DNA of 64,000 nucleotides from a virus (lineage: Duplodnaviria > Heunggongvirae > Uroviricota > Caudoviricetes): IMG/VR virus record IMGVR_UViG_2703718869_000013, positions 32,001 to 96,000 of that record. One strand, given 5' to 3'. Both the position numbers and the translations under genes were made by a program. Under the pieces are notes generated by a model. That model saw nothing but the letters and a program-made list of their open reading frames with translations, did not search any database and was not told where the DNA came from. Positions 10,015 to 53,846 of this stretch are shown piece after piece. The first letter of the stretch is position 1; each line of letters opens with the position of its first letter.

Positions 10015-11058
10015 TTAACCTATTGCTACTGGTTTTAACAAACCAGCATCAAGTAGCTTGCGAGTTAACCACTGCTGGCCTTTACCCGTTAATTGGGGCG
10101 TCAGCCGTATCTGGTAGCCATTTTCATCATCCAGCACCACTTCTTTCACCGTGAAATACCCGGCGTTAATGTACTGCTGGCGCGGTACGTTTTTGCGCGC
10201 ACCAAAAGCCATGAGAATGCCGTTCTGGCGCAACCATGAGAAAAGGGCGTTTTGCTTAAGTCCAACGACCTTTGCAAAGTTCCCGATCAGGATTCCATTA
10301 GCCGCTGATACCCGGTCGGCAAAATCGACTTTAGGGGCTGCGGCCACCAGCTGTTGTTCCAACTGCATTTTCTGTTCTGCCAACTCGGCAGCCAGGCGTA
10401 GAGCTTCTGGTAATGTTTGGGGGATCGATGGGGTAGGGGAGTTTGCCTGCTGCAATTCTTCCAGTTTGTCGATCAGCGAACGGCGGACCGCTTTTGACTC
10501 GCGCGCGGCGACTCGCAAGGCTTGTTTGTAGGTCATGGTGATGACCTCAAAAGAGCGCCCAGCCCTTGTGCCATGGGATTTTGCACTTTTTGTGTAAAAT
10601 TCACCTTCAAGTTCATCGAGTATTTTTTCGATGAATTTATTGTTTCTAACCTCTGGTTCTCCACATAACTTGCGTGCCTCATTGACCATCTTCAACAATG
10701 TTTGGCTGTCGATTGTGTCTCCGGTGTTGGGGATGACATTCACGGCTGGTGTTGGCGTAGCTGACGTAACAGGTGCTGGTTTCTCAACATTCAAATTTTT
10801 ACCGGTCACTCTATGTGCCTCCTTTCTCATTTCTGCTGCCACCGTTGCGTAACGTAGACGTCCTTGTTCAATCAAATAATCCCTGATCTCGGCTATCAGT
10901 AGCCTGTTGATCACAGCCTTATCTGTTCGGGTATAAAAACGCCTGGTTATCATGAAATAGTTGGCAATTGCGCCGGGGATCTCCCGTGTCGGCATACAGG
11001 CAGTATGCAGGGCGATTGCTTCGGCTATGTCATTACGGGTGACGAGAGGTTTTTTCAT
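10015..11058 (-). CDS. ant: Antirepressor Ant (module A), KilAC/ANT C-terminal domain
   Basis: 347 aa; start overlaps icd stop; about 93% identical to Ant of module B by eye; C-terminal ANT domain shared with KilA. Confidence 0.8.
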   Translation of the reverse strand: MKKPLVTRNDIAEAIALHTACMPTREIPGAIANYFMITRRFYTRTDKAVINRLLIAEIRDYLIEQGRLRYATVAAEMRKEAHRVTGKNLNVEKPAPVTSATPTPAVNVIPNTGDTIDSQTLLKMVNEARKLCGEPEVRNNKFIEKILDELEGEFYTKSAKSHGTRAGRSFEVITMTYKQALRVAARESKAVRRSLIDKLEELQQANSPTPSIPQTLPEALRLAAELAEQKMQLEQQLVAAAPKVDFADRVSAANGILIGNFAKVVGLKQNALFSWLRQNGILMAFGARKNVPRQQYINAGYFTVKEVVLDDENGYQIRLTPQLTGKGQQWLTRKLLDAGLLKPVAIG

Positions 11059-11276
11059 AAAACCCCCTGAACGTCGGCAGAGAAGGGGAGGTTCCAGTAA
11101 CTAAGTGAATTGCGCGAGTTAGTTGAAAAACGGGCAGTAAAAATGCAGGGGCCATCAGGCAATTGAGAGCGTGCTTCGTCTTCTGTTGCTGCGATAACGA
11201 AGTGATAGTGGTGTTTTTTACAGGAATAGAAACGCCAGATGAATTCTTGGCGTGCGCAAGGATTGGCATTAACCAT
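11055..11276 (-). CDS. icd: Icd-like small protein (module A), translationally coupled to ant
   Basis: 73 codons, stop overlaps ant ATG; paralogous to 39144-39365, 46770-46991 and 53290-53511. Confidence 0.7.
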   Translation of the reverse strand: MVNANPCARQEFIWRFYSCKKHHYHFVIAATEDEARSQLPDGPCIFTARFSTNSRNSLSYWNLPFSADVQGVL

Positions 11277-11289
11277 AGTTACGGCCTCA

Positions 11290-11480
11290 CTAACAGGTTT
11301 AACAACCTGCTACCCGCTGTCAAACAGGTGGCAGGACGTGACAGGGTTGACAGACTGGCGTTAGTGAAACCAGCAGGCCGAAGCCTCCCCATCACGCCCC
11401 ACCATAATTCGGGCGTAACGCGGTTTACGGACACAAAAATACCGCAATATCGGAAATCTGCGGTTGTCCGCACTAACATT
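11290..11480 (-). ncRNA. c4: c4-like antisense RNA region (module A) with flanking target repeats
   Basis: Conserved structured block with GGCTTCGGCC tetraloop hairpin; motif triples TTTGACAG/CTGTCAA and GTTAGTG/CACTAAC; exact RNA ends not determinable. Confidence 0.55.
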
Positions 11481-11589
11481 CAGGCTGTCAAACCTGGTCG
11501 CAGAATTTGCTACGACGGCAGAACTATAAGCCTGAACGATTAAAAGGTCAATATGATGCGAAAAGATAGCATTCGCGACTTAAAAATAC

Positions 11590-11606
11590 AAATTTATTAG
11601 AGCATT
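11590..11606. promoter_or_regulatory. C1-operator-like site upstream of module A (Op51-like)
   Basis: 16/17 match to the operator 17-mer; adjacent TTGTGCA-ATAAA-TGCACAA palindrome. Confidence 0.6.
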
Positions 11607-11701: not shown

Positions 11702-11833
11702 AATGAGAAGACTATTACTACCGTTATTATTTATGGCCGGGACTGTTAATGCAGCATCAAGCGTAAAGGAGATTTGTACCGATTATACGAAATACCTTGG
11801 GCACGTTTACGCCTTTGCGATCAATGACTATTA
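11702..11833 (+). CDS. Small secreted peptide (signal peptide then 26-aa mature part)
   Basis: ATG with AGGTGAG Shine-Dalgarno; MRRLLLPLLFMAGTVNA signal-like N-terminus; below the ORF-track size cutoff. Confidence 0.4.
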
Positions 11834-12180: not shown

Positions 12181-12960
12181 ATGAAATTATTTAATGTAAT
12201 AACATTTTGTTGTGCTATTTTTGCTGGAAGCGCGATAGCTGATAATAAATTGCCAGATTGGCTTTCTACTTCAAAAAAAGATTATGATTTAGTAAGGGTG
12301 TTCTATTTGTCTGGATTTGCCTCGAAAGCAATGAATAATCAATTTGGTTATCATTTTCCATCTGAGTTGGTTAATGATTTTAAAGATAATGAATTTGCCG
12401 CTCAGGAAAAATGGAATACAATTTCAATTGTATATGGTGAAATAAAATCCATAAGAATGGTGAATAATGAACCAATTGTAGAGTTATTTACTCCAGGGGA
12501 AAATGCAACGCCACTAAATTATATCAAATTGAAAGTGTTGGATTCAAAACAAAACTCTCTGTTAAAACTAAAAAAAGGGGATGATATATATGCAGTGTGC
12601 TCCGGTGCTAATTTTAGGTTAGTGCCAATTCTGAGCAACTGCACTCCAGCAACTGACGTCATTGATGCTGCACTCTCTTTTTCTGGTGAATATATGTTCC
12701 CTGCTTTTGATTCTTTTTCACCTACTAAGCAAAACGTCAAATATATATTCACAAATCAAGATCCTGTTCAGATGATGAATTTTATAGGGTACCTATCCTT
12801 AGTCGATACAACGAAGGATAAGAATAAAATGGATATGGTTCGTAAGTGTACGCCTTGGAAGCCGGAATGTTCACAACAATTCGTTGATGTAATGGAAGGA
12901 TTTGATAACATCATGTATAAATATGAGAGGGAATTTAAAAATTACATAGAATTAAAATAG
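12181..12960 (+). CDS. Secreted hypothetical protein (possible Sim-like superinfection exclusion, by position only)
   Basis: MKLFNVITFCCAIFAGSAIA signal peptide; AT-rich; divergent from the c4-icd-ant module; track ORF starts at 12148. Confidence 0.5.
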   Translation: MKLFNVITFCCAIFAGSAIADNKLPDWLSTSKKDYDLVRVFYLSGFASKAMNNQFGYHFPSELVNDFKDNEFAAQEKWNTISIVYGEIKSIRMVNNEPIVELFTPGENATPLNYIKLKVLDSKQNSLLKLKKGDDIYAVCSGANFRLVPILSNCTPATDVIDAALSFSGEYMFPAFDSFSPTKQNVKYIFTNQDPVQMMNFIGYLSLVDTTKDKNKMDMVRKCTPWKPECSQQFVDVMEGFDNIMYKYEREFKNYIELK

Positions 12961-24702: not shown

Positions 24703-25280
24703 TGACATTCAGAATGAGTGAACAATCACGGACCATAAAAATTTATAATCTACTGGCTGGAACCAATGAGTTTATTGGTGAAGGTGATGCATACATTCCA
24801 CCTCATACAGGTCTGCCTGCAAACAGTACCGATATTGCCCCGCCAGATATTCCGGCTGGCTTCGTGGCCGTTTTCAACAGTGATGAGGCATCGTGGAATC
24901 TCGTTGAAGACCATCGGGGAAAAACCGTCTATGACGTGGCTTCCGGCGACGCGTTATTTATTTCTGAACTTGGCCCATTACCGGAAAATGTCACCTGGTT
25001 ATCCCCGGAAGGGGAGTTTCAGAAGTGGAACGGCACAGCCTGGGTGAAAGATGCAGAAGCAGAAAAACTGTTCCGGATCCGGAAGGCGGAAGAAACAAAA
25101 AACAGCCTGATGCAGATGGCCAGTGAGCATATTGCGCCACTTCAGGATGCCGTAGATTTGGATATTGCGACGGAGGAAGAGGCATCGTTACTGACTGCAT
25201 GGAAGACATATCGGGTATTGTTGAATCGTGTTGATACAACAGTAGCATCGGATGTTGAGTGGCCAGTCGCCCCGCAATAA
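24702..25280 (+). CDS. Tail fiber assembly chaperone (U/Tfa family)
   Basis: 192 aa; start overlaps tail fiber stop; U/Tfa-type sequence as recalled. Confidence 0.8.
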
Positions 25281-38809: not shown

Positions 38810-38843
38810 ATTGCTCTAATAAATTTGATTTATTAGAGCAAAT
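38810..38843. promoter_or_regulatory. Tandem inverted C1 operators (ATTGCTCTAATAAATTT / GATTTATTAGAGCAAAT) upstream of module B
   Basis: First half is a 17/17 match to the operator 17-mer, second half 15/17 in inverted orientation. Confidence 0.75.
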
Positions 38844-38924
38844 AACCTACCATCGAACACGGCTCTATTGATCTCATCGTCGTTCAGGCTTATAGTTCCA
38901 CCGTCGTAGCAAATTCTGCGACCA

Positions 38925-39125
38925 GGTTTGACAGCCTGAATACTTGTGCGGACAACCGCAGATTTCCGATATTGCGGTATTTTTGTGTCCGTAAAACCGC
39001 GTTACGCCCGAATTATGGTGGGGCGTGATGGGGAGGCTTCGGCCTGCTGGTTTCACAAGTGCCAGTCTGTCAACCCTGTCACGTCCTGCCACCTGTTTGA
39101 CAGCGGGTAGCAGGTTGTTAATTCA
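38925..39125 (+). ncRNA. c4: c4-like antisense RNA region (module B) with flanking target repeats
   Basis: Triples GTTTGACAG / CTGTCAACC / GTTTGACAG and ACTTGTG / CACAAGT / ACTTGTGAGG; GGCTTCGGCC hairpin; downstream target overlaps the icd Shine-Dalgarno. Confidence 0.6.
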
Positions 39126-39143
39126 ACTTGTGAGGCCGTAACT

Positions 39144-39365
39144 ATGGTTAATGCCAATCCTTGCGCACGCCAAGAATTCATCTGGCGTTTCTATTCCTGT
39201 AAAAAACACCACTATCACTTCGTTATCGCAGCAACTGAAGACGAAGCACGCTCTCAATTGCCTGATGGCCCCTGCATTTTTACTGCCCGTTTTTCAACTA
39301 ACTCGCGCAATTCACTTAGTTACTGGAGCCTCCCCTTCTCTGCCGACGTTCAGGGGGGTTTATGA
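39144..39365 (+). CDS. icd: Icd-like small protein (module B)
   Basis: 73 codons; stop overlaps ant ATG (ATGA). Confidence 0.75.
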   Translation: MVNANPCARQEFIWRFYSCKKHHYHFVIAATEDEARSQLPDGPCIFTARFSTNSRNSLSYWSLPFSADVQGGL

Positions 39366-40405
39366 AAAAACCTCTCGTCACCCGTAATGACATAGCCGAA
39401 GCGATCGCCCTGCATACTGCCTGTATGCCGACACGGGAGATCCCCGGCGCAATTGCCAACTATTTCATGATAACCAGGCGTTTTTATACCCGAACAGATA
39501 AGGCTGTGATCAACAGGCTACTGATAGCCGAGATCAGGGATTATTTGATTGAACAAGGACGTCTACGTTACGCAACGGTGGCAGCAGAAATGAGAAAGGA
39601 GGCACATAGAATGACCAGTAATAATTTGAATGTTAAAAAACCAGCATCTGTTGCTTCAGCTACGCCATCACCAGCTGTGAATGTTATCTCCAACACTGGA
39701 GATACAATCGACAGCCAGACGCTGTTAAAGATGGTTAATGAGGCGCGCAAGCTATGTGGGGAAAATGAGATCCGCAATAACGATTTTCTCAATAGAATTA
39801 AGGATGAACTTGATGGGGAATTTTACGAAACTTTCGTAAAATCCCATGGCACAAGGGCCGGGCGCTCTTTTGAGGTCATAACCATGACCTACAAACAAGC
39901 CCTGCGAGTCGCCGCGCGCGAGTCAAAAGCGGTCCGCCGTTCGCTGATCGACAAACTGGAAGAATTGCAGCAGGCAAACTCCCCTACCCCATCGATCCCC
40001 CAAACATTACCAGAAGCCCTACGTCTGGCTGCCGAGTTAGCAGAACAGAAAATGCAGTTGGAACAACAGCTGGTGGCCGCAGCCCCTAAAGTCGATTTTG
40101 CTGACCGGGTATCAGCGGCTAATGGAATCCTGATCGGGAACTTTGCAAAGGTCGTTGGACTTAAGCAAAACGCCCTTTTCTCATGGTTGCGCCAGAACGG
40201 CATTCTCATGGCTTTTGGTGCGCGCAAAAACGTACCGCGCCAGCAATACATCAACGCCGGGTATTTCACGGTGAAAGAAGTGGTGCTGGATGATGAAGAT
40301 GGTTACCAGATACGGCTGACGCCCCAATTAACGGGTAAAGGCCAGCAGTGGTTGACGCGTAAACTGCTCGATGCAGGTTTATTAAAGCCTGTAGCGGCTG
40401 AGTGA
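39362..40405 (+). CDS. ant: Antirepressor Ant (module B)
   Basis: 347 aa; ANT/KilAC C-terminal domain; translational coupling to icd. Confidence 0.8.
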   Translation: MKKPLVTRNDIAEAIALHTACMPTREIPGAIANYFMITRRFYTRTDKAVINRLLIAEIRDYLIEQGRLRYATVAAEMRKEAHRMTSNNLNVKKPASVASATPSPAVNVISNTGDTIDSQTLLKMVNEARKLCGENEIRNNDFLNRIKDELDGEFYETFVKSHGTRAGRSFEVITMTYKQALRVAARESKAVRRSLIDKLEELQQANSPTPSIPQTLPEALRLAAELAEQKMQLEQQLVAAAPKVDFADRVSAANGILIGNFAKVVGLKQNALFSWLRQNGILMAFGARKNVPRQQYINAGYFTVKEVVLDDEDGYQIRLTPQLTGKGQQWLTRKLLDAGLLKPVAAE

Positions 40406-46175: not shown

Positions 46176-46435
46176 AGCTCCCCCTACAAAAAAGAAAAGC
46201 CACCAGCGGCGGCTTAGCAATACAACTGAAGGTAGCGCCCGGTACTCAGACTGTGCCGTCCATGGAATATTTGAAAAGGGATCCATCCGTACCGGGCGTG
46301 TGATGATTTTGACTGAAGTCACTTGTCAGTTGTCAATTATTTATTATTAAAAATAATATATTTATTAGTGCATACAAATAATACACTAAGTGTGCACATT
46401 GCAACCTCAGAGAGGAAACATTCAACCAGATTGTT

Positions 46436-46469
46436 ATTGCTCTAATAAATTTGATTTATTGGGGCAAAT
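46436..46469. promoter_or_regulatory. Tandem inverted C1 operators upstream of module C
   Basis: ATTGCTCTAATAAATTT exact, followed by inverted degenerate copy. Confidence 0.7.
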
Positions 46470-46549
46470 AAACTACTATTGGACGCCAGACTATTGATCT
46501 TCCTGTTGTTCAGGCTTATAGTTCCTACGCCGTAGCAAATTCTGCGACC

Positions 46550-46752
46550 GGGTTTAGCAGCCTGAATGTACATGCGGACAACCGCAGATTTCCGATATTG
46601 CGGTATTTTTATGTCCGTAAAACCGCGTTACGCCCGAATTATGGTGGGGCGTGATGGGGAGGCTTCGGCCTGCTGGTTTCATGTACGCCAGTCTGCTAAC
46701 CCCGTCACGTCCTGCCACCCGTTTAGCAGCGGGTAGCAGGTTGTTAAACCTG
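46550..46752 (+). ncRNA. c4: c4-like antisense RNA region (module C), different specificity
   Basis: Same scaffold as module B but triples are TTTAGCAG / CTGCTAA and GTACATG / CATGTAC, changed in a compensatory way. Confidence 0.6.
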
Positions 46753-46769
46753 TACATGAGGCCGTAACT

Positions 46770-46991
46770 ATGGTTAATGCCAATCCTTGCGCACGCCCTG
46801 AATTTATCTGGCGCTTTTACTCCTGCCAGAAACGCCACTATCACTTCGTTATTGCACCGACAGAAGATGAGGCACGTTCTCAGCTTCCGGATGCTCCCTG
46901 CATTTTCTCCGCACGCTTTTCTACTGACTCGCGCAATTCTCTCAGTTACTGGTGCCTCCCTGTTAACGCTTCTGTTCAGGAGGGGCTATGA
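46770..46991 (+). CDS. icd: Icd-like small protein (module C)
   Basis: 73 codons; stop overlaps ant ATG. Confidence 0.75.
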   Translation: MVNANPCARPEFIWRFYSCQKRHYHFVIAPTEDEARSQLPDAPCIFSARFSTDSRNSLSYWCLPVNASVQEGL

Positions 46992-48100
46992 GAACGTCAT
47001 TAGTCACCCGTGAAGAGATGATCGAGGCAATTGAACAGCACACAATCTGTATCAGCACCAGGGATATACCAGGCGTTATTGCCAACTACTTCATGATCAC
47101 CAAACAACTTTACCGGAGAAAGGACAAGAACGCGGTTCACCGTATCCTGTTGTCTGATATCCGCGAATACCTGCTCGAACAGGGTCATCTGAATTACGCA
47201 ACCGTCGCAGCCGAAGCACGCAAGGAGGCACACAGAATGAAAGCAACTAACGTTAAATCAGAAAAAATTTATGCACCTTCAGTTCAGGAATCGGAACTGG
47301 TGGTTGTTCAGAATCAGCCGGATGAAATTCCCGTTCTGGAATGGCAGGGAGTACGTGTCGTAACAACCGAAACTCTTGCTAGAGGGTATGGGGTCGATGA
47401 AGCCAATATTCGCAACAATTTGTCTCGCAACCTTGACCGCTTTGAAGAAGGTAAGCATTACTTTCTTCTAACTGGTTTAAAATTAAGAGAATTTAAGAAC
47501 AGAGTAACCGGAAGTTACTCTGTTGGTAAGAACGCCAGAAGCCTTACACTCTGGACAGAGCGCGGCGCTGCACGCATGTCTAAGATCGTGGACACAAATG
47601 AAGCATGGGCATTCTTTGAAAAACTGGAAGACAGCTACTTCCGGCAAAAAGAACAGCAACCGGTCGCAATCCCTCAGACGCTTCCCGAAGCTCTGCGCCT
47701 GGCTGCCGAGCTGGCTGAACAAAAGCAACTTCTGGAACAGAAAGCCCACCAGCTAAATCAGCAGCTGGTGGCCGCCGCCCCTAAAGTCGATTTTGCCGAC
47801 CGGGTATCAGGGGCCAAGGGGATCCTGATTGGAAATTTTGCAAAGGTTGTTGGGCTTAAGCAAAACGCGTTGTTTGCCTGGTTACGGGGGAACGGCATCC
47901 TGATAGCGTCCGGTGGACGTAAAAATGTGCCGTTCCAGCAATACATCAACGCCGGGTATTTCACGGTGAAAGAAGTGGTGCTGGATGATGAAGATGGTTA
48001 CCAGATACGGCTGACGCCCCAATTAACGGGTAAAGGCCAGCAGTGGTTGACGCGTAAACTGCTCGAAGCTGGCTTGTTAAAACCGGTGGCGGCTGAATGA
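46988..48100 (+). CDS. ant: Antirepressor Ant (module C), with extra Bro-N/AntA-like central domain
   Basis: 370 aa; C-terminal ANT/KilAC domain; central WQGVRVVTTETLARGYG..LTLWTERGAARM block. Confidence 0.8.
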   Translation: MRTSLVTREEMIEAIEQHTICISTRDIPGVIANYFMITKQLYRRKDKNAVHRILLSDIREYLLEQGHLNYATVAAEARKEAHRMKATNVKSEKIYAPSVQESELVVVQNQPDEIPVLEWQGVRVVTTETLARGYGVDEANIRNNLSRNLDRFEEGKHYFLLTGLKLREFKNRVTGSYSVGKNARSLTLWTERGAARMSKIVDTNEAWAFFEKLEDSYFRQKEQQPVAIPQTLPEALRLAAELAEQKQLLEQKAHQLNQQLVAAAPKVDFADRVSGAKGILIGNFAKVVGLKQNALFAWLRGNGILIASGGRKNVPFQQYINAGYFTVKEVVLDDEDGYQIRLTPQLTGKGQQWLTRKLLEAGLLKPVAAE

Positions 48101-48339
48101 TTAAAAAAGGCGGCCTTTCGGCCGCCAATGATGTCACGGAGTCTATAATGGCAATGTCTTCGTAGTTGACTAAAGCCACAACTCAATTATAACAATTAAT
48201 TATAGCAATAGTGGCTATTTTATTTATCGCGAATCACATTTTTTCTCTTCAGTACATGTGTGCTATACTCCTTCTTGATTGATTGGATGCGGAATACAAA
48301 CCCGCTCTTTTGTGCAGCCTGGCTCCTTGCCAGGCTTTT

Positions 48340-52174: not shown

Positions 52175-53293
52175 TTATTCAGCCGCCACCGGTTTTAACA
52201 AGCCAGCATCGAGCAGTTTACGCGTCAACCACTGCTGGCCTTTACCCGTTAATTGAGGCGTCAACCGTATCTGGTAGCCATCTTCATCATCCAGCACCAC
52301 TTCTTTCACCGTGAAATACCCGGCGTTGATGTACTGCTGGAACGGCACATTTTTACGTCCACCGGACGCTATCAGGATGCCGTTCTCCCGTAACCAGACA
52401 AACAGCGCGTTTTGCTTAAGTCCAACAACCTTTGCAAAATTCCCAATCAGGATCCCTTTAGCTACTGATACCCGGTCGGCAAAATCGACTTTAGGAGCGG
52501 CGGCCACCAGCTGCTGATTTAGCTGGTGGGCTTTCTGTTCCAGAAGTTGCTTTTGTTCAGCCAGTTCGGCAGCCAGGCGTAGGACTTCAGGAAGCGTCTG
52601 GGGGATTGCGATCGGTTGCTGTTCTTTTTGTCGGAAGTAGCTGTCTTCCAGTTTTTCAAAGAATGCCCATGCCTGATCGGTTTCGAGCATTTTAGCGTGG
52701 CGGGCTGCGCCGCGTTCTGTCCAGAGGGTGAGTGAGCGAACATTGCGAGCAATTTTTACAGAGTAGTTTAAAGCTACTCTGTGCTTCAACTCGCGCAATG
52801 ATTCTCCTTCAACTTTGAAAAAGTGCTTCCCTTCAACAAAGCGTACTTTGTTCTCATGATGATTTTGGCGAATACGGATTGTTTCTGTCCCATACCCTCT
52901 CGCAAGAGTCTCGGTTGTCACTACACGCACTCCCTGCCATTCCAGAACGGGAATTTCATCAGACTGATTCTGAACAACCACCAGCTCCGATTCCTGAACT
53001 GAAGGTGCATGAATTTTTTCTAATTTAACGTTATTTGCTTTCATTCTGTGTGCCTCCTTGCGTGCTTCGGCTGCGACGGTTGCGTAATTCAGATGACCCT
53101 GTTCGAGCAGGTATTCGCGGATATCAGACAACAGGATACGGTGAACCGCGTTCTTGTCCTTTCTCCGGTAAAGTTGTTTGGTGATCATGAAGTAGTTGGC
53201 AATAACGCCAGGTATATCCCTGGTGCTGATACAGATTGTGTGCTGTTCAATTGCCTCGATCATCTCTTCACGGGTGACTAATGACGTTCTCAT
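52175..53293 (-). CDS. ant: Antirepressor Ant (module D), with Bro-N/AntA-like central domain
   Basis: 372 aa; paralogous to module C Ant; ANT/KilAC C-terminus. Confidence 0.8.
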   Translation of the reverse strand: MRTSLVTREEMIEAIEQHTICISTRDIPGVIANYFMITKQLYRRKDKNAVHRILLSDIREYLLEQGHLNYATVAAEARKEAHRMKANNVKLEKIHAPSVQESELVVVQNQSDEIPVLEWQGVRVVTTETLARGYGTETIRIRQNHHENKVRFVEGKHFFKVEGESLRELKHRVALNYSVKIARNVRSLTLWTERGAARHAKMLETDQAWAFFEKLEDSYFRQKEQQPIAIPQTLPEVLRLAAELAEQKQLLEQKAHQLNQQLVAAAPKVDFADRVSVAKGILIGNFAKVVGLKQNALFVWLRENGILIASGGRKNVPFQQYINAGYFTVKEVVLDDEDGYQIRLTPQLTGKGQQWLTRKLLDAGLLKPVAAE

Positions 53294-53511
53294 AGTCCCT
53301 CCTGAGCAGAAGCGTTAACAGGGAGGCACCAGTAACTGAGAGAATTGCGTGAATCAGTGGAAAAACGGGCAGAGAAAATACATGGGGCGTCAGGAAGCTG
53401 AGAGCGAGCCTCATCTTCTGTTGGTGCAATAACGAAGTGATAGTGACGTTTTTGGCAGGAGTAAAAGCGCCAGATAAATTCAGGATGAGTTGGGGTAGGG
53501 ATAGTAGCCAT
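53290..53511 (-). CDS. icd: Icd-like small protein (module D)
   Basis: 73 codons from ATG at 53511 with GGAGG Shine-Dalgarno; track ORF continues upstream without a start signal. Confidence 0.7.
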   Translation of the reverse strand: MATIPTPTHPEFIWRFYSCQKRHYHFVIAPTEDEARSQLPDAPCIFSARFSTDSRNSLSYWCLPVNASAQEGL

Positions 53512-53519
53512 ATTGGCAG

Positions 53520-53700
53520 CCTCCTTAGACGTTGGTATGTAACCACCGCAGAAGAGACCAATCTTGCTGGCGGTGGACTGTACGGAGTTGGCCTTACTGG
53601 CGTCCAAGGTAACCAGCCTACCCGAAGGTAGCCCCATACAGCCCACCATTGTAGAGGTGTGCGTGTACGCCGATACAAAAAAAGACGCGAGCGGCGTCTG
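53520..53700 (-). ncRNA. c4: Divergent c4-like antisense RNA region (module D)
   Basis: Homologous hairpin with same TTCG loop but different stem (CTACC/GGTAG versus AGGC/GCCT); candidate triple GTCTAAGG (upstream, downstream at SD) with CCTTGGAC in the core; terminator hairpin upstream. Confidence 0.5.
53676..53699 (-). terminator. Hairpin AGACGC-cgctc-GCGTCT followed by T7 on the minus strand
   Basis: Direct reading of the reverse complement. Confidence 0.55.
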
Positions 53701-53829
53701 TATCGCCTTAGACTTAAGCGGGAGGCCAATCCCGGCACCCGTTTTAATGAGGTGCCTGATAAGCATAAACCGAAAATGCCTCAAGGCGCAAGAGGTCAGG
53801 CTCAATGTAACATCGGTAGTTAAAAAACA

Positions 53830-53846
53830 CAATTTATTAGAGCAAA
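53830..53846. promoter_or_regulatory. C1-operator-like site upstream of module D
   Basis: 15/17 match; between pacB stop and the module D control region. Confidence 0.6.

What the first reader, a model, noticed from the sequence alone, without database searches (positions are those of the whole stretch)
46436..48100. Module C carries a re-specified c4: compensatory changes in the antisense loops and in both flanking target copies
Against module B the scaffold is near-identical, but every copy of the a-type element changes from TTTGACAG/CTGTCAA to TTTAGCAG/CTGCTAA (GAC to AGC in the targets, GTC to GCT in the antisense) and every copy of the b-type element from ACTTGTG/CACAAGT to GTACATG/CATGTAC. 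Module A (11290-11480) keeps the B-type a element but has a third b element, GTTAGTG/CACTAAC. Coordinated change of three sequence copies while preserving complementarity is covariation, and strong evidence for functional RNA-RNA pairing with divergent immunity specificities, as in the classical P1 versus P7 heteroimmunity. One genome holding several heteroimmune antirepressor modules, all behind C1 operators, looks like an array built to defeat or discriminate several c4 immunities.
Basis: seen in the sequence. Interest (0 to 1): 0.85.

Follow-up and report, generated by a model that had tools for sequence, protein, structure and literature searches.

The report
Extra P1-type c4 antisense immunity module
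This stretch of a P1-like phage-plasmid is a complete extra copy of the classical c4 antisense-RNA/antirepressor immunity cassette whose recognition sequences have changed in step in the RNA and in both of its target sites. It is one of four differently keyed copies in the same genome, a known mechanism in an arrangement I found mentioned only in passing in the papers I could search.

Summary
Window 46436-48100 is a full c4-icd-ant module: C1 operator, promoter-like site, a1/b1 leader, 77-nt c4 RNA (Rfam C4, 71.7 bits), a2/b2 sites over the icd ribosome-binding site, icd, then an overlapping ant gene.

Compared with module B, 21 of 28 leader differences fall in the 42 columns of the six recognition elements, and every change is complementary.

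- **Module identities.** Module A is the canonical P1 immI type. Module C combines the P7 a element (TTAGCAG) with a b element (GTACATG) found in neither P1 nor P7. Module D uses a diverged IsrK-type scaffold with its own matched elements.
- **Wider survey.** In 115 fully parsed modules, 114 have all three copies matched. Two a alleles and six b alleles occur in 11 of 12 combinations. On 38 distinct leaders, 100% of cells pair and 8 pairs show two-sided changes.
- **Arrays.** Related plasmids carry up to five modules at five conserved slots, almost always with different specificities.

The mechanism is that of P1/P7 heteroimmunity. The allele repertoire and the multi-slot arrays are what looks new. 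That the modules do not cross-react, and that the array serves to break or broaden immunity, is inferred and not tested.

The parts
46436..46452 (+). C1 repressor operator of module C (ATTGCTCTAATAAATTT)
   Evidence: Exact match to the operator 14-mer at 46438-46451. It aligns with the annotated P1 operator Oc4/Op51.
46494..46522 (+). Sigma-70 promoter-like site TTGATC-17-TATAGT, at the position of the P1 promoter P1c4 (former P51b)
   Evidence: Promoter scan. It aligns with the annotated P1 promoter. Transcription was not tested.
46516..46610 (+). Leader carrying a1 (46554-46560 TTAGCAG) and b1 (46568-46574 GTACATG), then a terminator-like hairpin with a U run (46582-46610)
   Evidence: Rfam c4-a1b1 43.0 bits (gathering score 46.7) and isrK 42.5 bits (gathering score 50). 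Alignments A1 and A4. a1/b1 pair with c4 in 100% of 38 distinct leaders.
46643..46719 (+). c4 antisense RNA of module C (77 nt by homology with P1 c4); b' CATGTAC 46680-46686, a' CTGCTAA 46693-46699
   Evidence: Rfam C4 71.7 bits against a gathering score of 45, at 46637-46722. Fold of -44.9 kcal/mol, z = -4.9, with b' in the hairpin-2 loop and a' unpaired.
46723..46761 (+). Downstream targets a2 (46723-46729 TTAGCAG) and b2 (46752-46759 GTACATGA), the latter overlapping the icd Shine-Dalgarno GAGG (46758-46761)
   Evidence: Sequence. Homologous to the annotated P1 a2/b2 sites, described there as 'repression of icd ant translation'. Pairing is 100% with 8 two-sided covarying pairs.
46770..46991 (+). 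icd (73 aa), host cell-division inhibitor homologue
   Evidence: ORF list. 82% identical to the module A Icd; module A Icd is 96% identical to P1 Icd. Annotated as Icd-like in related plasmids.
46988..48100 (+). ant (370 aa), whose ATG overlaps the icd stop. It has an N-terminal region shared with P1 Ant1, an ORF6N middle domain and a KilAC C-terminal domain. An internal Ant2-like start lies at 47237 behind AAGGAGG.
   Evidence: ORF list, protein alignment, Pfam ANT 3.4e-31 and ORF6N 2.6e-18. The internal start is read from the sequence by analogy with the P1 ant2 annotation.
48109..48126 (.). GC-rich hairpin just after the ant stop (GGCGGCC-loop-GGCCGCC)
   Evidence: The scan calls it a terminator-like site on the minus strand, because the T run lies on that side. 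Its role for the plus-strand operon is not established.
10015..11604 (-). Module A: canonical P1-type immI (operator 11604..11591, c4 11409..11324, icd 11276..11055, ant 11058..10015); specificity a TTGACAG / b GTTAGTG
   Evidence: Rfam C4 68.8 bits and c4-a1b1 55.5 bits. Elements identical to P1. Flanked by sim-like and kilA/repL-like DNA as in P1.
38812..40405 (+). Module B, downstream of lyz (operator 38812-38825 plus an inverted half-site, c4 39011-39096, icd 39144-39365, ant 39362-40405); specificity a TTGACAG / b ACTTGTG
   Evidence: Rfam C4 68.6 bits and c4-a1b1 57.1 bits, sequence, operator, gene context in a related plasmid.
52175..53844 (-). Module D, between pacB and c1 (operator 53844..53831, IsrK-like leader 53755..53678, c4 53653..53566, icd 53511..53290, ant 53293..52175). 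Own elements: a' AGGCCAA with TTGGCCT/TTGGTCT, b' CCUUGGACG with GUCUAAGG over the Shine-Dalgarno.
   Evidence: Rfam C4 75.9 bits and isrK 60.8 bits, sequence. Allele comparisons within this scaffold show the same three-copy covariation.

Best explanation
Window 46436-48100 is a functional-looking extra copy of the P1/P7 immI cassette. It lies between the mat/ref side and cra-cre of a P1-family phage-plasmid.

Inferred mechanism, by homology with P1:
1. The operon is transcribed from a promoter next to a C1 operator.
2. The 77-nt c4 RNA is cut out of the leader.
3. Its two exposed elements (b' in a hairpin loop, a' in a single-stranded joint) pair with a2 and b2 on the same kind of transcript.
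4. This covers the icd ribosome-binding site. Icd translation is blocked, and with it expression of the translationally coupled antirepressor Ant.
5. The upstream copies a1/b1 also pair with c4. Their role is open; autoregulation, or an IsrK-like decoy RNA, are possibilities.

What sets module C apart is its key: the a element of P7 (TTAGCAG) combined with a b element (GTACATG) that neither P1 nor P7 has. Its c4 should therefore silence its own ant and not the ant genes of modules A (P1 key), B or D, and the reverse should also hold.

The genome thus carries four self-silenced antirepressor cassettes with four different RNA keys. The keys come from a family-wide pool of 2 a alleles, at least 6 b alleles and alternative scaffolds.

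Shown here: anatomy, homology, complementarity, covariation, predicted fold, and distribution in other genomes.
Inferred: transcription, RNA processing, repression in trans, lack of cross-reaction between modules, and any benefit of holding several modules.
For: - **RNA family and fold.** Rfam C4 hit at 71.7 bits; the fold exposes a' and b'.
- **Homology.** Column-by-column alignment with the annotated P1 and P7 immI regions, including operator, promoters, a1, b1, c4, a2, b2 and icd.
- **Gene layout.** icd-ant start/stop overlap; Ant has a KilAC domain.
- **Concentrated change.** 21 of 28 B-versus-C leader differences lie in the six elements, and all are complementary.
- **Covariation.** 38 distinct leaders give 100% pairing with 8 two-sided covarying pairs and no one-sided change. 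No shuffle reaches the observed covariation score, and slid controls pair at no more than 48%.
- **Survey.** 114 of 115 fully parsed modules have all three copies matched.
- **Diversity.** Elements show 0.289 differences per site against 0.034 in the rest of the leader.
- **Other scaffold.** The same three-copy logic holds in the diverged D scaffold, with three allele sets.
- **Pairing energies.** Cognate c4-target duplexes come to -26.7 to -30.4 kcal/mol. Cross-pairs within the window come to -11.9 to -24.5. That is no stronger than the P1-P7 cross-pairs (-20.2 and -24.5), and P1 and P7 are known to be heteroimmune.
- **Co-residence.** Co-resident modules differ in specificity in 22 of 23 multi-module genomes or contigs and in two complete plasmids with 4 and 5 modules.
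Against: - No expression or repression data exist for this module.
- Modules A and B share the a element. pE2865-1 has two modules that differ only in a. Some cross-repression between co-resident modules is therefore possible.
- The duplex energies are crude. The program can choose off-register pairings, for example with the conserved GTAGCAG just 3' of a2.
- The c4-a1b1 model scores just under its gathering threshold for module C (43.0 against 46.7).
- One surveyed module (L035) has a b2 that does not match its c4. This is either an assembly chimera or a natural mismatch.
- The middle domain of Ant-C (ORF6N) differs from P1 Ant1, so its target may not be C1.
Confidence: 0.8

Rival explanations
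1. Passive mosaicism. The extra modules are cassettes picked up by recombination at variable hot spots of P1-like plasmids. Each c4 only keeps its own ant silent so that lysogeny is not destroyed. Holding several keys has no function at the level of the array.
For: The modules sit in known variable regions. The literature notes icd-ant homologues in RD-1 and between pacB and c1 only as insertions. The same alleles appear at different slots and with different Ant middle domains. Remnants and tandem duplicates exist (L089, L145). Most PLSDB P1-like plasmids have a single P1-scaffold module: 685 places in 575 records.
Against: Slots are conserved across plasmids and each has its own C1 operator. 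Co-resident specificities are almost never repeated: 1 of 23 genomes against 5.2 expected under a naive shuffle, P about 0.01. Diversity is about 8.6 times higher in the elements than in the scaffold, which points to selection on specificity itself.
Confidence: 0.3
2. Different targets. Ant-C and Ant-D (ORF6N middle domain) do not act on P1 C1. They inactivate repressors of other resident prophages, or have another role, so the array is a cross-talk device between prophages and not a set of keys against one immunity.
For: The middle third of Ant falls into two classes, P1-like in A and B and ORF6N in C and D. Trans-acting antirepressors that coordinate several prophages are documented in Salmonella (title and abstract of PMC3121763). 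The D-type leader is an IsrK homologue from a Gifsy-1-type antirepressor locus.
Against: The N-terminal ~85 residues and the C-terminal ~135 residues are almost invariant among all four Ants and P1/P7 Ant1. All four operons sit behind C1 operators, which ties them to the C1 circuit.
Confidence: 0.15
3. Chance or alignment artefact. The short motifs recur by chance and the complementarity comes from how the loci were lined up.
For: A given 7-mer is expected several times in 64 kb on two strands (own arithmetic, not a tool result).
Against: The copies occupy homologous columns of a 92%-identical alignment. Pairing drops from 100% to 26-48% when partners are slid by 1-3 columns. 114 of 115 independent modules are matched.
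Confidence: 0.01

Closest known systems
immI region of phages P1 and P7 (c4 antisense RNA, icd, ant1/ant2; Rfam C4 RF01695 and c4-a1b1 RF03163)
   Same: The order of parts is the same: C1 operator, promoter, a1/b1, c4, a2/b2 over the icd ribosome-binding site, icd, then an overlapping ant. The scaffold is 90-95% identical. The c4 fold is the same. The a element is identical to that of P7. The logic of compensatory changes matches what separates P1 from P7.
   Different: The b element (GTACATG) is in neither P1 nor P7. The module sits next to cra-cre and not between sim and kilA. Ant has an ORF6N middle domain in place of the P1 Ant1 middle region. It is one of four such modules in one replicon.
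IsrK-orf45-anrP locus of Salmonella prophage Gifsy-1 (Rfam isrK RF01394)
   Same: A short leader RNA with a terminator comes first, followed by a processed c4-like RNA (STnc1160), a small ORF and an antirepressor. Module D matches the isrK model at 60.8 bits. The module C leader matches it at 42.5 bits.
   Different: In Gifsy-1 the short IsrK RNA is reported to activate translation in trans, and the authors compare the locus with P4, not with P1 c4. No such activity is known for P1-type leaders. Module C falls below the isrK gathering score.
CI RNA immunity of satellite phage P4 (seqA/seqB/seqC)
   Same: A small RNA is processed from the leader of the operon it controls. It pairs with complementary copies upstream and downstream of itself (as summarised in PMC4825925).
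   Different: P4 CI acts by transcription termination on replication genes. There is no sequence or gene-content similarity to this locus, and I ran no test of one.

Membership tests
P1/P7 immI c4-icd-ant module | c4 RNA with the C4 family sequence and structure | tested here: met
   Rfam RF01695 at 71.7 bits (gathering score 45), full length 1-87, at 46637-46722. Predicted fold matches modules A and B, which share the P1 scaffold.
P1/P7 immI c4-icd-ant module | Two single-stranded c4 elements (a', b') complementary to a2 and b2 just upstream of icd, with b2 reaching the ribosome-binding site | tested here: met
   CTGCTAA/TTAGCAG and CATGTAC/GTACATG; b2 at 46752-46759 abuts GAGG and the ATG at 46770. 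100% pairing with covariation on 38 leaders. Homologous to the annotated P1 sites.
P1/P7 immI c4-icd-ant module | Upstream duplicate targets a1/b1 (c4-a1b1 motif) | tested here: met
   Present and complementary at 46554-46560 and 46568-46574, with 100% pairing on 38 leaders. The Rfam RF03163 score is 43.0, just under its gathering score of 46.7, so membership rests on alignment and not on the curated threshold.
P1/P7 immI c4-icd-ant module | Operon placed under a C1-controlled operator with a nearby promoter | tested here: met
   Exact operator 14-mer at 46438-46451. Promoter-like TTGATC-17-TATAGT at 46494-46522. This shows the sequences are present; C1 binding and transcription were not tested.
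P1/P7 immI c4-icd-ant module | icd followed by a translationally coupled ant encoding a KilAC antirepressor with nested Ant1/Ant2 starts | tested here: met
   The icd stop overlaps the ant ATG at 46988-46991. KilAC domain at 3.4e-31. Conserved internal Met with AAGGAGG at 47222-47239. The middle domain differs (ORF6N).
P1/P7 immI c4-icd-ant module | c4 released from the primary transcript by processing (RNase P in P1, from my memory of the literature) and acting in trans | not testable with these tools
   Needs RNA mapping and trans-repression assays.
P1/P7 immI c4-icd-ant module | Specificity: cognate c4 represses, heterologous c4 does not (heteroimmunity) | not testable with these tools
   Only duplex energies are available. 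Cognate pairs give -26.7 to -30.4 kcal/mol and cross-pairs in the window give -11.9 to -24.5, similar to or weaker than P1 x P7.
IsrK-type leader RNA (Rfam RF01394) | Match to the isrK covariance model at or above its gathering score | tested here: not met
   Module C leader 46529-46610 scores 42.5 bits against a gathering score of 50. Module D's leader does meet it, at 60.8 bits.

The most novel reading that the evidence does not exclude
P1-family phage-plasmids hold arrays of up to five antirepressor cassettes at fixed genomic slots. Each is locked by its own c4 RNA key, drawn from a combinatorial pool: 2 a alleles, at least 6 b alleles, and at least three alleles of a second scaffold. On this reading, frequency-dependent selection in phage-against-phage conflict drives both diversification and accumulation of keys. 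Each extra ant key lets an infecting phage break the immunity of residents that lack the matching c4. Each extra c4 lets a resident silence more incoming phages. The a1/b1 leader may add an IsrK-like anti-antisense layer. This would be an RNA-based immunity-specificity arms race, and also a natural library of antisense/target pairs that do not cross-react.
Probability: 0.35. Interest if true: 0.65.

Novelty: new variant of a known kind. Interest (0 to 1): 0.45.

Why it matters
The c4 system is the textbook case of heteroimmunity encoded by an antisense RNA, but it is known from only two alleles, P1 and P7.

The data here show a much larger natural repertoire. At least 11 a/b combinations occur on one scaffold, plus three matched allele sets on a second scaffold. 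They also show that single plasmids stack four or five differently keyed antirepressor cassettes.

If the keys really do not cross-react, three things follow:
- Immunity relations among the hundreds of P1-like phage-plasmids of E. coli, E. albertii and Salmonella, many of which carry resistance genes, would become predictable from sequence.
- It would give a testable model of how these elements invade or exclude each other.
- It would supply ready-made antisense/target pairs for synthetic regulation.

If the keys do cross-react, this is simply paralogous cargo with an elegant but already understood mechanism.

Tried and rejected
1. **Chance or misalignment.** Rejected by the alignment, the slid-partner controls and the survey.
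2. **Module C arose in this genome by mutation of module B.** Rejected. The same allele at the same slot is in 6 IMG/VR loci, and 11 PLSDB plasmids have a near-identical leader. Its a element is the P7 allele.
3. **Literature.** Four searches on multi-c4 arrays or on a c4 specificity code found nothing on either; one further search only located Rfam and IsrK background. Three papers touch the subject: two mention extra icd-ant or c4-icd copies in passing, and one review describes c4 and P1/P7 heteroimmunity. Gilcrease & Casjens 2018, Lobocka 2004 and Riedel 1993 are not held in the library. I therefore cannot exclude that the D6 paper discusses this.
4. **Duplex-energy matrix as a test of cross-reaction.** It is only indicative. 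duplexfold finds off-register pairings, so the a-element energies are uninformative.
5. **Terminator scan for the leader hairpin.** The isrK model match and the fold (whole leader z = -1.8, weak) are the only support.
6. **First parsing patterns.** The first pattern failed on the ACTTACG allele and on the D scaffold. Both were corrected.
7. **Co-residence null.** The shuffle ignores the fact that slots have their own allele pools. I did not run a slot-aware null because many flanks could not be classified.
Full report
**What the window is.** BLAST of 46300-48200 against phage and plasmid collections puts the window in the P1 family of phage-plasmids. The closest relatives are roughly 82-133 kb non-mobilizable plasmids of E. 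coli and E. albertii, and many of them match the query at 3-4 places per record, with one at 6. Rfam finds four C4 antisense RNAs in the window: 11409..11324 (-), 39011..39096 (+), 46637..46722 (+) and 53653..53566 (-). It also finds two c4-a1b1 leader motifs and one isrK match directly upstream of the fourth C4. Each C4 is followed by a 73-aa icd ORF and an overlapping ant ORF of 347-372 aa. Each is preceded by an exact C1 operator 14-mer; the window has 14 operator-like matches against 0.74 expected.

| Module | a element | b element | Note |
|---|---|---|---|
| A | TTGACAG | GTTAGTG | Identical to P1; sits between sim-like genes and kilA/repL, so it is the canonical immI |
| B | TTGACAG | ACTTGTG | Downstream of lyz |
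| C | TTAGCAG | GTACATG | a element is exactly that of P7 |
| P7 (reference) | TTAGCAG | GATTGTG | |

In module C the copies lie at 46554-46560 (a1), 46568-46574 (b1), 46680-46686 (b'), 46693-46699 (a'), 46723-46729 (a2) and 46752-46759 (b2). B and C differ at 21 of the 42 element columns and at 7 of the 205 other leader columns.

**Anatomy of module C.**
- Operator at 46436-46452.
- Promoter-like site TTGATC-17-TATAGT at 46494-46522, aligned with the P1 promoter P1c4.
- Leader with a1 and b1. It scores 43.0 bits on the c4-a1b1 model, just under the gathering score, and 42.5 bits on the isrK model.
- c4 RNA at 46643-46719. Its fold matches that of modules A, B and D. b' lies in the loop of the second hairpin and a' in the unpaired joint (-44.9 kcal/mol, z = -4.9).
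- a2, then b2 running into the GAGG Shine-Dalgarno of icd.
- icd at 46770-46991.
- ant at 46988-48100, its ATG overlapping the icd stop.

Ant-C shares the first ~85 and last ~135 residues with P1 Ant1 almost exactly. It has an ORF6N domain in the middle, as does Ant-D. Ant-A and Ant-B have the P1-type middle region.

**Evidence from related sequences.**
- An exact-pattern scan of IMG/VR with the conserved c4 hairpin returned 114 loci. A scan with the module D hairpin returned 31.
- Parsing gave 115 complete P1-scaffold modules, counting the window, P1 and P7. In 114 of them a1 = a2 = the complement of a', and b1 = b2 = the complement of b'.
- The one exception, L035, starts inside the leader at the same base as a sister contig of the same genome. 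It may be an assembly chimera.
- There are two a alleles (the P1 and P7 forms) and six b alleles: GTTAGTG, GATTGTG, GTACATG, ACGAATG, ACTTGTG and ACTTACG. They occur in 11 of the 12 possible combinations.
- On an alignment of 38 distinct leaders, both proposed pairings are 100% standard pairs. Eight pairs change on both sides and none changes on one side only. No shuffle reaches the observed covariation score. Partners slid by 1-3 columns pair at only 26-48%.
- Diversity is 0.289 per site in the elements and 0.034 elsewhere in the leader.
- The diverged D scaffold shows the same three-copy logic in three allele sets: TTGGCCT/GTCTAAGG, TTAGGAC/AATCAAGG and TTGAGAC/GCAAAAGG.

**Mechanism.** The P1 record annotates a2 and b2 as C4 binding sites that repress icd-ant translation, and a1 and b1 as putative C4 targets. 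A recent review states that c4 blocks ant translation by pairing around the ribosome-binding site, and that this underlies P1/P7 heteroimmunity. From my memory of the primary work (Citron & Schuster 1990 and 1992; Biere et al. 1992; Riedel et al. 1993; Hartmann et al. 1995; none could be opened here), c4 is processed from the operon's own leader, and blocking icd translation also stops transcription from reaching ant.

Module C has every sequence feature this mechanism needs. The most likely account is therefore that c4-C silences icd-C and ant-C, and only those. Crude duplex energies agree. Cognate pairs give -26.7 to -30.4 kcal/mol. Cross-pairs within the window give -11.9 to -24.5, which is no stronger than P1 against P7. 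None of this is a functional test.

**The array.**
- Grouping the IMG/VR loci by contig or isolate genome gives 23 cases with two to five modules. Only one repeats a specificity, and that one is a tandem duplication. A naive shuffle expects 5.2 (P about 0.01).
- Of 26 co-resident pairs on the P1 scaffold, 8 share a and 1 shares b.
- Two complete plasmids were read in full. pE2865-1 has four modules, including one of the module C type at the same cre-side slot and one at a fifth slot after dnaB. p06-3542 has five modules at five slots, all with different specificities.
- In PLSDB, 575 records hold a P1-scaffold leader at 685 places. About 104 hold a full-length D-type leader. Multi-module arrays are therefore a sizeable minority, and this window, with four, is near the top.
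But slots have their own allele pools, and I did not run a null that respects slot and phylogeny. That part stays an inference.

**What is known.** Two papers mention extra copies only in passing. One notes icd-ant homologues in RD-1 of pSvP1, and an ant between pacB and c1 in pTZ20_1P and RCS47 (PMC6906374). The other notes a second c4/icd region in a D6-like plasmid (PMC6799933). I found no description of the allele repertoire, of the a/b combinations, or of arrays with distinct keys. The most relevant comparative paper (Gilcrease & Casjens 2018) could not be opened.

**Verdict.** The mechanism is the known P1/P7 one. Module C is a new specificity allele of it, and not something re-specified within this genome. 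The multi-slot arrays with different keys are a variant architecture that I found mentioned only in passing. Interest is moderate, at 0.45. It would rise if lack of cross-reaction and an advantage in phage-against-phage conflict were shown.

Noticed in passing
window 46529-46610; window 53755-53678: The P1-type a1/b1 leader of module C matches the Rfam isrK model (42.5 bits, E = 5e-8), including a terminator-like hairpin and U run. Module D's leader is a full isrK hit (60.8 bits). P1-type leaders and Gifsy-1 IsrK therefore look homologous. This raises the possibility that a short a1/b1 RNA acts in trans on c4, as IsrK is reported to act in Salmonella.
   Followed up: partly
L147+L148 (NZ_AP018809.1) 69,480-71,153; L149+L150 (NZ_CP034163.1) around 1-430 and 94,644-95,683: A fifth conserved slot for a c4-icd-ant module lies just after the dnaB(ban)-like gene. 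p06-3542 fills all five slots with five different specificities.
   Followed up: partly
L035 (IMGVR_UViG_2565956613_000015) 1-260 of the reverse strand: This is the only module of 115 whose b2 (GTTAGTG) does not match its own c4 and b1 (ACGAATG). The contig begins inside the leader at the same base as sister contig L034. It is either an assembly chimera or a natural recombinant that would escape b-site repression.
   Followed up: partly
L145 (two D-type cores about 1.5 kb apart); L089 (D-type core at 11785, P1-scaffold core at 12791): L145 has tandemly duplicated D-type modules. L089 has a truncated D-type icd followed about 1 kb later by a P1-scaffold c4 of type AG/GTTAGTG. Both are signs of module turnover by recombination within the conserved icd and leader sequences.
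   Followed up: partly
alignment A4, columns 27-28, 168-169 and 198-199: The two a alleles differ by two adjacent transitions. A path through G-U wobble intermediates would never break pairing. By contrast, reassorting a and b by recombination needs three crossovers, because the order on the DNA is a1 b1 b' a' a2 b2. Yet 11 of 12 combinations exist. How they arise is unexplained.
   Followed up: no
window 46734-46740 (GTAGCAG), and the same position in most modules: A conserved GTAGCAG just 3' of a2 is complementary at 6 of 7 positions to the P7-type a' element. It distorted the duplex-energy calculation. Some alleles have TCGCAG or GCGCAG there instead.
   Followed up: no
window 25045-25243: Full-length Rfam IS009 RNA match (192.4 bits) on the plus strand, unrelated to the immunity modules.
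   Followed up: no
window 38827-38840 against 46453-46475: Module B has a second, inverted operator half-site (1 mismatch) next to the first, making a bivalent operator. In module C the corresponding half is degenerate (TGCCCCAATAAATC), so C1 control may differ between the two modules.
   Followed up: no
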